Positions 5,110 through 14,460 of a stretch of 64,000 nucleotides of DNA are shown here, one piece after another (positions within the stretch are counted from its first letter, which is position 1; each line of letters starts with the position of its first letter). Location of the stretch: the NCBI GenBank assembly GCA_031416315.1, contig JANOTL010000202.1, forward strand, positions 1 to 64,000, read 5' to 3'. The DNA comes from Pseudomonadota bacterium (lineage in GTDB: Bacteria > Bdellovibrionota_B > Oligoflexia > Oligoflexales > CAIYRB01). A model generated the notes under the pieces. That model was given only the letters and a program-made list of their open reading frames with translations. It searched no databases and was not told where the DNA came from. Both the position numbers and the translations under genes were made by a program.

Positions 5110-5141
5110 TCGTGCGGGGCTCAACTTTAGGAGGTCCCCCC

Positions 5142-6248
5142 ATGAATCTGACGTTCGCTCACGGCGCCATCGTAGGCGTCACCCTGTTCGCTGCCGGCAC
5201 GGCATCGGCCACTTTTGACCACAAATTCTGCAATGACAACGACTACACGGTCGGCTACTCCGTGGTCTCCGGCGAGCCCAACGGTTACGGCTGGGTCACC
5301 GACGGCTGGTACGAGCTCGAAGCTGGACAGTGCAGCGATACGTGGTCGTTCGACTCGTCGCCCGTCTTCGTGCGCGGCGAAGGCTGGACGTCGGAATGGG
5401 GTGGCGACTACCTCTTTTGCGTCGAAGGCGAAGGCTCCGAGTTTCTCTACACCGGAGCTGCGGGCGATGGTTGCGCTACGGCAACCCAGTACAAGATCGG
5501 CTTCGCAAAGGTCGAAGGCACTTGGGGCGCGGTCACCGAGACCCGCTTCCACGGCGGCAACTACGGCAACTCGGCCCAGACGCTGGACGTCTGCAACCGT
5601 ACGGATCAAGCGACCTCGGTCGCGGTCGGCTTTCAGCGCGGCCCCTTCGCGACGCGCACTTACGACGGCTGGCACTCGATCGAGGCGGGTCAATGTCAAA
5701 GCCTCGACTTCCCGAACGTGGCCGAGGACCTCGAAGTCGTGGCGCTGCGTGACGACGGACGCATGATCTGGCAAGCGGGCGAAACCGCGCACCAGCATTG
5801 CATCTCGACCAGCGACAACTTCTGGTTCCAGAACCCGGACGAAAGCCGCGCCTGCAATCTCGCCGGCGAGCTGCGGGCTTCGTTCATCACGATCCCGATC
5901 ATCGAAGGTCGTGGCGCGTTCGACATCACGGCGGACGCGGGTCAGGTGCTCGATCTCCACGACGGCATTGGCGGCCAAGAGCAAGGCCAGCAGCAGCAGG
6001 GCCAAGAGCAAGGCCAGCAGCAGCAGGGCCAGGAGCAAGGCCAGCAGCAGCAAGGCCAAGAGCAAGGTCAGCAGCAGCAGGGCCAGGAGCAAGGCCAGCA
6101 GCAGCAAGGCCAGGAGCAAGGCCAGCAGCAGCAGGGCCAAGAGCAAGGCCAGCAGCAGCAAGGCCAGGAGCAAGGCCAGCAGCAGCAGCAAGGCCAAGAG
6201 CAAGGCCAGCAGCAACAAGGCCAGGAGCAAGGCTTCCGCCGCCGCTAA
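5142..6248 (+). CDS. Secreted protein with two DUF1036-like domains and a Gln-rich repeat tail
   Basis: Signal peptide; two CN...GW..(L/I)EAGQC repeats; strong RBS. Confidence 0.75.
   Translation: MNLTFAHGAIVGVTLFAAGTASATFDHKFCNDNDYTVGYSVVSGEPNGYGWVTDGWYELEAGQCSDTWSFDSSPVFVRGEGWTSEWGGDYLFCVEGEGSEFLYTGAAGDGCATATQYKIGFAKVEGTWGAVTETRFHGGNYGNSAQTLDVCNRTDQATSVAVGFQRGPFATRTYDGWHSIEAGQCQSLDFPNVAEDLEVVALRDDGRMIWQAGETAHQHCISTSDNFWFQNPDESRACNLAGELRASFITIPIIEGRGAFDITADAGQVLDLHDGIGGQEQGQQQQGQEQGQQQQGQEQGQQQQGQEQGQQQQGQEQGQQQQGQEQGQQQQGQEQGQQQQGQEQGQQQQQGQEQGQQQQGQEQGFRRR
5973..6233 (+). repeat. 27-bp coding tandem repeat, (GQEQGQQQQ)x9 plus a partial unit
   Basis: Unit ggccaRgagcaaggYcagcagcaRcaR; one unit has an extra Gln codon. 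Confidence 0.95.
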
Positions 6249-11671: not shown

Positions 11672-12238
11672 GTGCGAGGTCCGCAAAAGCTCGCCCTCGC
11701 GTCGTTGCTCTTGAGCTCGGCTGCGGCTTCGGCCGGATTCGACGCGAACGAGCGCAGTATCAACGGCACAGGCGAGACCTTGGCACAAGGCCGCTACGAG
11801 GTGGGCATCGGGTCCGTGGCCTACGGGGTCACCAATCAGACCATGGTGCGGGTTCCTACCTTATCGATCCTGGTTGGAGCAGCTCGTCTCGAGGCACGAC
11901 ACAAGGTGGAGCTCGGGGCCTCGGCACGGGCCACGCCCTACGTCGGGGCGGAGACACCGCGGCACGGTGTCGCCGGTGTGGACTTCGGTCTCGATTTGGG
12001 GACGGGGCGCGAACACTCCCTGACGGTCGGAGCCGGCGCCAAGATCGGCCCGCACGGGGGCGGCGACGTGTCCGCGGAGTACGATTTCTATCATCGGGGC
12101 AACGTGGTGTACGCCGGCGTTGTCGGGCGGGTGGGATACCTAGGCTATACCTGGGCTTGGGAATCCTTCCATGTGGGGCTCATCACCAGTCCGGCCTCCG
12201 GGTTCTTGCCGTTTCCTTATGTGGCCTGGCGCCTTTAG
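11672..12238 (+). CDS. Hypothetical small outer-membrane protein
   Basis: GTG start, signal peptide LALASLLLSSAAASA, Gly/aromatic beta-strand pattern. Confidence 0.6.
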   Translation: MRGPQKLALASLLLSSAAASAGFDANERSINGTGETLAQGRYEVGIGSVAYGVTNQTMVRVPTLSILVGAARLEARHKVELGASARATPYVGAETPRHGVAGVDFGLDLGTGREHSLTVGAGAKIGPHGGGDVSAEYDFYHRGNVVYAGVVGRVGYLGYTWAWESFHVGLITSPASGFLPFPYVAWRL

Positions 12239-12241
12239 AAA

Positions 12242-12257
12242 CGGCCCACTCCTTGCT
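12242..12257 (+). promoter_or_regulatory. Putative sigma54 promoter of paralog A
   Basis: CGGCCCACTCCTTGCT (GG-N10-GC with TTGC). Confidence 0.5.
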
Positions 12258-12314
12258 CTAGCGTGCGGGACGCACACGGACGTCTTTCACGTCTTTTTGG
12301 AAGGGGAACGGATC

Positions 12315-12740
12315 ATGAAGAAACTTGCCATGCTGATCGTGTCGGTTGGTGCCTTGGTCGCCTGCCAAACGCAGTCTAACCCTGAGGCCACGAAAGAACT
12401 AAACACGCACGGAATGCCGTCGTCGACCGGCGACTCGGCCGAGCCGATGGTCGATCCGGACGACGCCTCGGCCGCCGACGCGCTCGCGGCGCGGAATGCG
12501 ACCGAGGGCCGGGTCGAGGACGACCTCAATGTCGAGACCTCCGCGATTCCAGAAGGCAGCGCGGTCGACTCAGCCTCCACGGACCTCGAGGATGCGGACG
12601 CCGATCGGAGTCTCGCAGCGGAGACGGGATGTGGCCTCTTCGTGATCTCGACCAGCCCAGGCGCCGTCGGCGACCCGTGCATGACCCAGGAGATGGTGAA
12701 CGCTGGTTACGCCAACTCCACGGAAGGATTGGCGCACTGA
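12315..12740 (+). CDS. Acidic lipoprotein with GAVGDPCMTQE C-terminal motif (paralog A)
   Basis: LVAC lipobox; tail CGLFVISTSPGAVGDPCMTQEMVNA...LAH shared with the next two genes. Confidence 0.85.
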   Translation: MKKLAMLIVSVGALVACQTQSNPEATKELNTHGMPSSTGDSAEPMVDPDDASAADALAARNATEGRVEDDLNVETSAIPEGSAVDSASTDLEDADADRSLAAETGCGLFVISTSPGAVGDPCMTQEMVNAGYANSTEGLAH

Positions 12741-12815
12741 GGCATCAGGCCAGTTCCGATCGCTATCTCGTACGAGTTTTGCTACGAGGCGGCAGCAAAC
12801 CGCTTGTAGGAGCTC

Positions 12816-13154
12816 ATGTCCATGAAAGCCCTCGTCCTCTTGTTCGCAGCCTCTTTGTCCGGAGCCGCGGTCGCGGCCCAGCCGATCAACAACCAGACCG
12901 CGCTCGAGTCGACCCCGTCGGCGACCCCGGTCAACAACCAGACGGCCGGCTACGGCACGTCGGCCTCGGACACTGCCGAAGATGCTCCGGAAGCAATAGA
13001 CGCCGTCGCTTCGACGGAAGACGCCGCGGACCTCGCGGTCAACGACCGCAAGGCGCTCCCGTGCGGCCTCTTCCTCGTTTCGATCAGTGCCGGCGCCGTC
13101 GGTGACCCGTGCATGACGCAAGAAGTCGTCAACGCTGAGCAGCTCGCACACTGA
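12816..13154 (+). CDS. Acidic secreted protein with GAVGDPCMTQE motif (paralog B)
   Basis: SPI-type signal peptide (AVAA); two P(I/V)NNQT repeats; CGLFLVSISAGAVGDPCMTQEVVNAEQLAH. Confidence 0.85.
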   Translation: MSMKALVLLFAASLSGAAVAAQPINNQTALESTPSATPVNNQTAGYGTSASDTAEDAPEAIDAVASTEDAADLAVNDRKALPCGLFLVSISAGAVGDPCMTQEVVNAEQLAH

Positions 13155-13172
13155 GTGACTTCGAAGGTCCAG

Positions 13173-13208
13173 AGCCCGCCCGTGCCACCCAGGTGGCGCC
13201 GGCGGGCT
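13173..13208 (+). terminator. Hairpin terminator after paralog B
   Basis: AGCCCGCC...GGCGGGCT with inner stem, followed by TCCCATTTT. Confidence 0.6.
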
Positions 13209-13216
13209 TCCCATTT

Positions 13217-13232
13217 TGGACTGCATCTTGCT
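13217..13232 (+). promoter_or_regulatory. Putative sigma54 promoter of paralog C
   Basis: TGGACTGCATCTTGCT (GG-N10-GC with TTGC). Confidence 0.5.
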
Positions 13233-13286
13233 TTGACGATCGTGGATAAAACCTCAAGCCCACGATTCGACGAAGGAGAACGGAAG

Positions 13287-13757
13287 ATGAAAGCAGCGAG
13301 CTTCATGCTGGTATTCGGCGCACTCACCGCTTGTCAGTCGCATAGCGACTCCAGCGTCGTCACCGAGCCGATGAACGAAGAGGCGATGGCGAGCGAAGAC
13401 ACCCGGACCAGCGTGTCCTTTAAGAACCCGACAGACCTCGCGGCGGCGCCCTCGGCCGTGCCAGTAAACAACCAAACTCCGTACTATCAGGCCGACGACG
13501 TGGCCGACGTCGATGTGAGCGGCGACGTCTCTGAAGGTCAAGTCGACGTCGACGTCACGACCGACGACGGCATCACGACCGAGGTCTTTTCGGCCGACGC
13601 GGATCTTCCGGCCGTCACGTCCACCAACATCGGCACCGAGACGTCCTGCGGCCGTACCGTCATCGCGACGAGCCCCGGCGCGGTGGGCGATCCTTGCATG
13701 ACGCAGGAGATGGTGGATGCGGGCGCTTTGGGTCGTGATGAATCGATCGCTCACTGA
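13287..13757 (+). CDS. Acidic lipoprotein with GAVGDPCMTQE motif (paralog C)
   Basis: RBS AAGGAG; LTAC lipobox; PVNNQT; CGRTVIATSPGAVGDPCMTQEMVDA...IAH. Confidence 0.85.
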   Translation: MKAASFMLVFGALTACQSHSDSSVVTEPMNEEAMASEDTRTSVSFKNPTDLAAAPSAVPVNNQTPYYQADDVADVDVSGDVSEGQVDVDVTTDDGITTEVFSADADLPAVTSTNIGTETSCGRTVIATSPGAVGDPCMTQEMVDAGALGRDESIAH

Positions 13758-13854
13758 GTCTGCGGACTGATTCGACCAGAAATTTGAAGCCCTGCTTGCG
13801 AACGATCGCAAGCAGAGCTTCAGGCGCCTCGTATTCTGAGCGCGCGGTGTCGTG

Positions 13855-14280
13855 TCAGCTGATCAGTCCCATGGTCGCAAGCGAGGAAAGCGGCAACACG
13901 AAGCGCCAGCTCGTACCAGAGCCCGGTGAGGACTCGAGGTCGATGCGACCTCCCAGCTTGTCGACCGCCTCCTTGACGGCGCTGGTACCGACGCCCCGAC
14001 CCGAAAGCTCCGTGACCGTGCTGCGCGTCGAAATTCCGTCGGTCAGCAAGGCGGTGACCAAGTCGGAACGCGTCTCGTGCGGCAGGCCCGCGGCGCGTGC
14101 CCTGGCGGCGATGCGCGTGAAATCGATCCCGCGGCCGTCGTCCTTGATTTGAATCCAGAAAGAATCTTCGTCTTTGCCGGCTTCCAGGCTCAAGTTGCCG
14201 ACGGCGGACTTGCCGGCTTGGATCCGGTCGTCTTCCGTCTCCAGGCCGTGATCGAGGGCGTTCCGTACGATATGGATCAT
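13855..14280 (-). pseudogene. Isolated CheA P4 (HATPase) domain; probable truncated gene
   Basis: HIVRNALDHG, DDGRG, SGRGVG motifs; no Hpt or dimerisation domain upstream and no CheW domain downstream. Confidence 0.7.
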
Positions 14281-14460
14281 GCTTCCGCCGTCAGGACGCT
14301 CGTGATCGAGTACGCCGCGACCATACTTCAGCGCTCGCGTTACGAAAAGCCGCAGTGACGCGACGGTCCAGATTTGGTGATCCGGCGACGCGAGGTCGAA
14401 AGAGAGCACGAGATGCTCCGGCCAGCTCGCGCTGAGGAGCCGCCACGTCGTCAGTTGCAT

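What the first reader, a model, noticed from the sequence alone, without database searches (positions are those of the whole stretch)
12242..13757. Three tandem exported proteins sharing a near-invariant C-x15-C 'GAVGDPCMTQE...AH' tail
Seen: three adjacent co-oriented genes (two lipoproteins, one SPI-secreted) whose acidic low-complexity bodies barely align. All end in C-G-x6-S-[PA]-G-A-V-G-D-P-C-M-T-Q-E-[MV]-V-[ND]-A and terminate in [LI]AH. B and C also share P(V/I)NNQT. I recognise no family with this motif. Inference: strong selection on a ~25-aa disulfide-closed tail carried on disordered tethers. It could be a released signalling or ligand peptide, a sorting/polymerisation signal or a metal-binding tip. 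The Asp-Pro in GDPC recalls GDPH autocleavage sites (speculative). No modifying enzyme is adjacent, so a RiPP reading is unsupported.
Basis: partly seen in the sequence, partly recalled or inferred. Interest (0 to 1): 0.85.

Follow-up and report, generated by a model that had tools for sequence, protein, structure and literature searches.

The report
Undescribed cysteine-loop domain ending in histidine
Three neighbouring exported proteins end in a small two-cysteine domain that matches no catalogued family, recurs in about 90 diverse proteins, so far traced only to one bacterial order, nearly always finishes with a histidine, and likely serves as a docking tip that binds an unknown partner in the cell envelope.

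Summary
Observation confirmed: three co-oriented genes (two lipoproteins, one secreted) with acidic low-complexity bodies share a C-x15-C tail ending in [LI]AH. Synonymous sites are saturated (pS 0.59-0.77, pN 0.09-0.19), so this is purifying selection, not gene conversion. The tail is the shortened form of an undescribed ~55-residue domain found in 89 protein clusters, all small and mostly exported: C-x7-[ST]xxAV[GA]xPCxTTxxF..LGL[ST]xxQ..AH, predicted as a cysteine loop plus two helices. A, B and C lack the second helix. His is the last residue in 78 of 89, at 12-60 residues from the second Cys, so it goes with the terminus, not the fold. No Pfam, NCBIfam, PDB or fold match. Real genome hits are in 5 of 131 genomes of the phylum, all in the window's order (Oligoflexales). 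Neighbourhoods are not conserved. Asp-Pro is present in only 33 of 89, which rejects autocleavage. No large cargo argues against a sorting tag; no linked enzyme argues against a RiPP. Best reading (0.45): an RcsF-like disulfide-stapled docking tip on a disordered spacer, with short subfamily-specific head motifs as a second binding site. No partner is identified. The scan's earlier notes showed no look-alike on other DNA.

The parts
12315..12740 (+). Gene A, 141-aa predicted lipoprotein (lipobox Cys17), acidic disordered body, truncated cysteine-loop domain, ends LAH
12630..12704 (+). A: C-x15-C loop plus helix 1 (25 codons)
12822..13154 (+). Gene B, 110-aa predicted signal-peptidase-I secreted protein (alternative start 12816), ends LAH 13 residues after the second Cys
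12882..12944 (+). B: two copies of the head motif P[IV]NNQT (12882-12899, 12927-12944)
13062..13136 (+). B: C-x15-C loop plus helix 1
13173..13208 (+). GC-rich hairpin in the B-C spacer (17-nt arms); possible pause or mRNA-stabilising element, not scored as a terminator
13287..13757 (+). Gene C, 156-aa predicted lipoprotein (lipobox Cys16), ends IAH
13461..13478 (+). C: head motif PVNNQT shared with B
13647..13721 (+). C: C-x15-C loop plus helix 1
13785..13822 (.). 17-bp hairpin between C and the convergent gene; terminator-like on the minus strand, may close both transcripts

Best explanation
A, B and C are tandem paralogues of an undescribed family of small exported proteins whose conserved C-terminal domain likely folds as a disulfide-closed loop with one or two helices and likely docks, with its free ...AH end, onto a conserved cell-envelope partner encoded elsewhere. 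Shown: the family, the motif, purifying selection, the terminal His, the lack of cargo and of conserved neighbours. Inferred: (1) Sec export, with lipidation of A and C and release of B; (2) DsbA/DsbB closes the single Cys pair; (3) the invariant [ST]-x-x-A-V-[GA]-x-P-C-x-T face and the free C-terminal hydrophobic-Ala-His are read by a partner; (4) the acidic disordered body is a spacer, as in RcsF; (5) short subfamily-specific head motifs just after the signal peptide (here PVNNQT; elsewhere EGA[FY][KP], LPPW, NVAGH, ELGDE), often repeated, are a second binding site, making each protein a two-ended adaptor. The window's copies lack helix 2 yet keep loop, helix 1 and His, which would define the minimal functional unit.
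For: 89 of 97 hits in the 50%-cluster library are under 300 aa and carry the motif; Cys2 100%, Cys1 98%, S/T 99%, A 100%, V 96%, P 99%, T 96%. 78 of 89 end in His (66 AH), 12-60 residues after Cys2, against 190 of 5284 His ends genome-wide. Tail pN 0.09-0.19 versus pS 0.59-0.77. 81 of 90 have a hydrophobic N-terminal segment; 85 of 90 have no Cys in the linker. DsbB and six DsbA-like genes are in the genome. AlphaFold with 87 rows gives block pLDDT 75-93 over residues 31-80 and helices 53-59 and 64-75. P0048, P0059 and P0081 are almost only signal peptide plus domain, so the domain is the functional unit. Head motifs cluster on the domain tree (EGAF 6 changes versus 16.7 shuffled) and in this genome EGA[FY][KP] and P[VI]NNQT occur only in family members. 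Three members carry an OB-fold-like envelope domain in front (Atlas lead 0.84-0.90). RcsF has the same layout (PMC9907809, passages).
Against: No partner was identified and no binding was measured. No gene is shared across neighbourhoods except between orthologous loci. The family was found in only 5 of 131 genomes of the phylum, so any partner must be as patchy or the function dispensable. 10 of the 90 sequences lack the terminal His. C-terminal AH is 4.4-fold enriched across this genome and not significantly export-specific once the family is removed (p = 0.13), so part of the AH signal may be a generic end preference. In Acinetobacter LirL, a lipoprotein with a terminal His, deleting it did not change the phenotype tested (PMC9499571, passages). 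The model's pTM is 0.46 and the loop has no regular secondary structure; the disulfide was not read from coordinates. 44 of 94 sequences have none of the eight head motifs scored.
Confidence: 0.45

Rival explanations
1. Envelope stress protectants: hydrophilin-like disordered bodies do the work (crowding, desiccation or dormancy protection) and the conserved domain only self-associates or stabilises the chain; the AH end merely protects it from tail-specific protease.
For: Bodies are acidic and almost free of aromatics. Some members lie near stress-type genes recognised by eye (Hsp20, hibernation-factor/cold-shock fusion, ElaB-like). 4 of the 10 non-His ends are Pro, the genome's other favoured last residue. 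A Tsp-like protease gene lies 3 kb away.
Against: Members with almost no body exist. Protection would not require 66 of 89 to end exactly AH. Most neighbourhoods are not stress clusters.
Confidence: 0.2
2. Metal-binding tip: the terminal His (imidazole plus free carboxylate), with Thr/Asp/Met of the loop or reduced Cys, chelates Cu, Zn or Ni in the periplasm.
For: His is rare inside the domain (1.3%) but last in 78 of 89. In the shortest forms it caps helix 1 at +12/+13 from Cys2.
Against: The His sits 12-60 residues from the loop, so it has no fixed geometry. Only two Cys, expected to be oxidised after export. Met after Cys2 is only 21%. No metal-handling neighbours.
Confidence: 0.12
3. Multi-core peptide precursor: the repeated head motifs (LPPW x2-3, NVAGH x2, GVAQF x2, PVNNQT x2) are core peptides and the conserved domain is a follower recognised by a processing enzyme encoded elsewhere.
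For: Exact internal repeats of subfamily-specific motifs in P0033, P0041, P0056, P0062, P0063, P0065, P0075, P0077, P0078 and B, in front of one constant C-terminal module.
Against: No modifying enzyme, protease or transporter is shared among 17 loci. Both MNIO genes of the genome have their own adjacent Cys-rich signal-peptide precursors. No common cleavage motif flanks the repeats, and about half the family has no scored motif.
Confidence: 0.1
4. Canonical-type protease inhibitor: the disulfide-closed loop presents a variable residue (K 47%, T 19%, L 12%) before an invariant Ser/Thr as a P1-P1' reactive site, protecting the cell from its own or prey proteases.
For: Variable residue before a 99% conserved S/T in a Cys loop; paralogue expansion; the order includes predators (abstract starts). 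The likeness to Bowman-Birk K-S loops is recalled, not tested.
Against: No sequence or fold match to any solved inhibitor. The Cys spacing differs from Bowman-Birk and Kazal loops (recalled). It does not explain the terminal His.
Confidence: 0.07
5. C-terminal sorting or secretion tag, or D-P self-cleaving module.
For: Always C-terminal, behind variable N-terminal sequence, on exported proteins.
Against: Largest member 248 aa, no enzymatic cargo in a search without length limit. No transmembrane segment in A, B or C. D-P in 33 of 89 only.
Confidence: 0.06

Closest known systems
RcsF (E. coli outer-membrane lipoprotein; PMC9907809, passages read)
   Same: Lipid anchor, disordered N-terminal tether, disulfide-stabilised C-terminal domain acting by protein contacts.
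   Different: No sequence or fold match; RcsF's core is about 70 aa with two non-consecutive disulfides; this family has one Cys pair, soluble as well as lipidated members, several paralogues per genome and a conserved terminal His.
LirL (Acinetobacter baumannii; PMC9499571, passages read) and Braun's lipoprotein Lpp
   Same: Small low-complexity lipoproteins whose last residue drew attention (His in LirL, Lys in Lpp).
   Different: No detected homology; LirL's His was dispensable in the assay reported and LirL is not peptidoglycan-linked; Lpp is tethered through Lys, which this family does not conserve at the end.
Spy/CpxP LTXXQ family (PF07813)
   Same: Helix-L[ST]xxQ-helix pattern resembles the second half of the full-length domain (resemblance recalled).
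   Different: No member of 87 hit PF07813 at E <= 0.01; the Cys loop is absent from Spy/CpxP; A, B and C lack that half.
MYXO-CTERM sorting tag (PMC11980579, search listing and abstract start only)
   Same: C-terminal module with an invariant Cys on exported proteins.
   Different: No transmembrane helix, no large cargo, two Cys and a soluble helical end.
MNIO-modified exported peptides (bufferin type)
   Same: Signal-peptide-bearing small proteins with conserved Cys; the genome has two MNIO genes.
   Different: Those genes have their own neighbouring precursors; none is near a family member.

Membership tests
Any Pfam or NCBIfam family | Profile match at or near curated cut-off | tested here: not met
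   A, B, C: 0 Pfam families at E <= 1; NCBIfam best 14 bits versus cut-off 37; 87 members: five unrelated families, one member each, E 0.005-0.009
GDPH / self-processing Asp-Pro modules | Invariant Asp-Pro bond | tested here: not met
   D-P in 33 of 89, GDPC in 27 of 89; N 24%, Q 20% at that column
GDPH / self-processing Asp-Pro modules | Observed cleavage at D-P | not testable with these tools
   needs MS
MYXO-CTERM-type sorting tags | Transmembrane helix after the signature (feature partly recalled) | tested here: not met
   no 19-residue hydrophobic segment after residue 45 in A, B, C or the C115 paralogue
C-terminal sorting or secretion tags in general | Attached to diverse folded cargo proteins | tested here: not met
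   89 members, maximum 248 aa; only three with a folded OB-like domain; the 8 long hits lack the motif
RiPP precursor (MNIO or other) | Modifying enzyme encoded beside the precursor | tested here: not met
   17 loci compared, several on short contigs; MNIO loci have other precursors
RiPP precursor (MNIO or other) | Processed or modified core peptide | not testable with these tools
   needs MS; a trans-acting enzyme is not excluded
RcsF | Lipid anchor, disordered tether, Cys-containing C-terminal domain | tested here: met
   A and C from sequence; architecture only
RcsF | Sequence homology and two non-consecutive disulfides | tested here: not met
   no profile or PDB-sequence hit; one Cys pair
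RcsF | Shared fold | tested here: inconclusive
   best Z 2.3, uninformative for so small a domain
Spy/CpxP LTXXQ (PF07813) | Profile match and two LTXXQ repeats | tested here: not met
   0 of 87 members; one L[ST]xxQ only
Canonical protease inhibitors (Bowman-Birk, Kazal) | Inhibitory reactive loop and fold | tested here: inconclusive
   no match; activity untested

The most novel reading that the evidence does not exclude
The family is the ligand side of an undescribed envelope recognition system that reads a free C-terminal Ala-His together with a disulfide loop, with swappable, repeated head peptides as address labels or as core peptides released by an enzyme encoded elsewhere; the genome-wide 3-5-fold excess of AH/SH/TH ends would be other clients of the same reader.
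Probability: 0.15. Interest if true: 0.8.

Novelty: new variant of a known kind. Interest (0 to 1): 0.48.

Why it matters
It defines a new, tightly delimited protein domain in a poorly studied order that includes predators, with an unusual constraint: the last residue is conserved as His regardless of distance from the folded part. A conserved free C-terminus implies a reader, so this gives a direct bait for finding an unknown envelope protein. The natural truncations in this window mark the minimal unit to synthesise (about 30 residues). Without a partner or phenotype it remains a well-defined domain of unproven function.

Tried and rejected
Gene conversion: rejected, synonymous differences at or near saturation. 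D-P autocleavage: rejected. Upstream beta-barrel as partner: homologues in 8 of 94 other genomes of the order, only G001 also has the family, no family gene in the 10 loci scanned. AH as the tmRNA tag: the tmRNA reads ...ALAA by eye, ARAGORN chose another frame. Fold searches: Foldseek best E 5.1, VIA-align best Z 2.3 (rmsd 3.8, 32 aligned); absence is uninformative. ESM Atlas: no usable hit for the domain. Homotrimer prediction: no answer, score 0.00, neither for nor against. Expression: no RNA holder listed; four small-share DNA runs gave only short pieces. Viral contigs: 0 pattern matches. The search for related loci could not use the 6-row alignment. Word-indexed protein searches were insensitive: 2, 6 and 17 hits. 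Profile comparison with the nearby Tsp-like protease was meaningless. Independent origins of the truncated form could not be shown: the tree has 46 columns and 52 of 91 inner branches open. Literature: motif search AVGDPC/AVGNPC/AVGQPC/GAVGDP gave two unrelated papers; searches listed nothing on this family; supplements were not searched and could hold a mention. One weak hit (G049:C5, E 0.006) was not inspected.

Full report
1. Observation. Three co-oriented genes lie at 12315-12740 (A, 141 aa), 12822-13154 (B, 110 aa) and 13287-13757 (C, 156 aa). A and C have lipoboxes (LVA-C, LTA-C) and B an Ala-x-Ala signal, judged from sequence and a crude hydropathy script. Tails are 16-21 of 25 identical; bodies are acidic, nearly free of aromatics and align weakly. 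In the 25 tail codons pS is 0.59, 0.68, 0.77 and pN 0.10, 0.09, 0.19 for A-B, A-C, B-C; synonymous differences at shared residues are 7/19, 10/19, 10/15 against 8.8, 8.8, 6.9 expected at saturation. This is old duplication under purifying selection.

2. Own genome. Two more copies exist: a complete lipoprotein on C115 (10408-10821, minus) with a longer, divergent tail ending SAH, and a 44-codon piece on C74, 84% identical to C's tail, with no signal peptide in frame and no match to C's body in other frames, probably a remnant.

3. The family. An 11-row tail profile run over 1.84 billion cluster representatives gave 97 hits. I dropped 8 hits of 669-3263 aa that lack the motif; 89 remain, at most 248 aa, including B, C, the C115 paralogue and the C74 piece. 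Column frequencies: Cys1 98%, S/T 99%, A 100%, V 96%, G/A 100%, then D 38%, N 24%, Q 20%, P 99%, Cys2 100%, T 96%, T/S 94%, F/V 96%, L 76%, L 73%, Q 71%. Cys spacing is 15 in 67, 13 in 12, 14 in 4, 16 in 1; 5 were partial or mis-parsed. 78 of 89 end in His and 66 in AH, 12 to 60 residues after Cys2; the third-last residue is mostly L, V, A or T. 81 of 90 have a hydrophobic N-terminal segment, the median linker is 58 residues, 48 linkers are strongly acidic and 4 strongly basic. So the window's tail is the first half of a ~55-residue domain. A, B, C, P0067 and L090 stop after helix 1 but keep the His; A, B, C and the C74 piece form a supported clade, with P0067 as sister. One origin of the truncation is not excluded.

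4. Structure. AlphaFold on P0059 with 87 rows: mean pLDDT 74, pTM 0.46, blocks 75-93 over residues 31-80, helices 53-59 and 64-75, no regular structure in the Cys loop; an 11-row model agreed on two helices. The disulfide is inferred from the invariant pair, export, and DsbB plus DsbA-like genes in the genome. No Pfam, NCBIfam or PDB-sequence match.

5. Range. Clear hits in 5 of 131 genomes of the phylum, 12 loci: G000 five, G001 two, G007 one, G008 two, G059 two. The other 9 genomes match only the signal-peptide and linker part at E >= 0.004. A degenerate DNA pattern over 185,579 species genomes gave 49 matches, of which 3 are real by profile (E < 1e-17) and 46 are not; a stricter version of that pattern fits 53 of the 89 proteins, so divergent members elsewhere can be missed. 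One real match is a record titled Oligoflexus sp. (L087), and the same protein occurs in a genome of the window's order, which places the window in Oligoflexales (inference). Most of the 89 clusters are metagenomic singletons without taxonomy (10 looked up). A metagenome scan gave 10 matches, 7 real.

6. Context. Across 17 loci, neighbours are shared only between orthologous loci; several loci are short contigs. No modifying enzyme, receptor or transporter recurs. The two MNIO genes of the genome have their own precursors. The beta-barrel gene upstream of A does not track the family.

7. Head motifs. The variable bodies carry short subfamily motifs soon after the signal peptide: EGA[FY]-type in 18, an AN-x-G-type in 10, LPPW in 6, ELGD in 6, NVAGH in 4, PVNNQT in 2, and none of the eight scored in 44 of 94. 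Several are repeated within one protein. They cluster on the domain tree, which shows inheritance, not co-evolution. In this genome the EGA[FY][KP] and P[VI]NNQT patterns occur only in family members; LPPW occurs in five unrelated large proteins.

8. The terminal His. Of 5284 genes from my own crude gene caller, 51 end AH, 4.4 times the near-end expectation; SH, TH and xP ends are also enriched. The excess in exported over cytoplasmic proteins (18 of 1131 versus 23 of 3203, p = 0.012) is not significant without the four family members (p = 0.13). A survey of bacterial C-termini (PMC7246954, passages) reports clade-variable Pro bias and, in those passages, nothing on AH. A generic preference thus exists, but 66 of 89 against about 1 in 100 needs family-specific selection.

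9. Mechanism. The constant part is small, exported, sometimes nearly the whole mature protein, never found on an enzyme, and conserved both in a constrained loop and at the free end. The simplest reading is a docking tip for an envelope partner encoded elsewhere, on a disordered spacer, like RcsF in layout (PMC9907809, passages) but unrelated in sequence; confidence 0.45. Rivals: stress-protective disordered proteins with a stabilising cap (0.2), metal-binding tip (0.12), multi-core precursor (0.1), protease-inhibitor loop (0.07), sorting tag or D-P module (0.06). The LirL precedent shows a terminal His on a lipoprotein can be dispensable (PMC9499571, passages).

10. Novelty. I found no description: motif search and five topic searches (listings and abstract starts only), and no look-alike in the scan's earlier notes. 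Supplements were not searched. Labels of neighbouring genes not backed by a family call (Hsp20, ElaB-like, FmdB zinc ribbon, Tsp, DegT) are recalled from sequence appearance. Verdict: a real, undescribed domain in a known kind of architecture; interest 0.48.

Noticed in passing
window 11675-12238 (+): Predicted ~187-aa small outer-membrane beta-barrel, 76 nt upstream of A; weak PF13505 hit only; homologues in 8 other genomes of the order.
   Followed up: partly
window 13855-14460 (-): Isolated CheA-like ATPase domain (PF02518) matching the middle of three full-length CheA proteins of the genome at 35-40%; looks like a fragment, behind a STAS/zinc-ribbon-like gene.
   Followed up: partly
G000:C74 6596-6955 (-) (L010): Orphan 44-codon copy of C's tail starting at a G-run, no signal peptide, still pN 0.04 versus pS 0.36 against C.
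   Followed up: yes
L090:526-1035 and L094:607-936: A second small exported low-complexity protein with a C-x15-C...LGGxW tail directly follows the family gene in both loci, 57% identical over 42 aa.
   Followed up: no
whole genome G000: C-terminal SH, AH, TH (3-5.5-fold) and xP (up to 4.4-fold) dipeptides are enriched over near-end expectation.
   Followed up: partly
window 5112-6248 (+): Secreted tandem DUF1036 protein ending in about ten copies of a GQEQGQQQQ repeat.
   Followed up: no
G000:C138 67399-69544 and C5 3342-5371: Two MNIO (PF05114) genes of about 550-580 aa, each behind a signal-peptide, Cys-rich precursor.
   Followed up: no
L102:8303-9070, L103:2424-3116, L096:653-1411: Family members with an OB-fold-like domain in front of the Cys-loop domain; L103 has a stand-alone similar lipoprotein next door.
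   Followed up: partly
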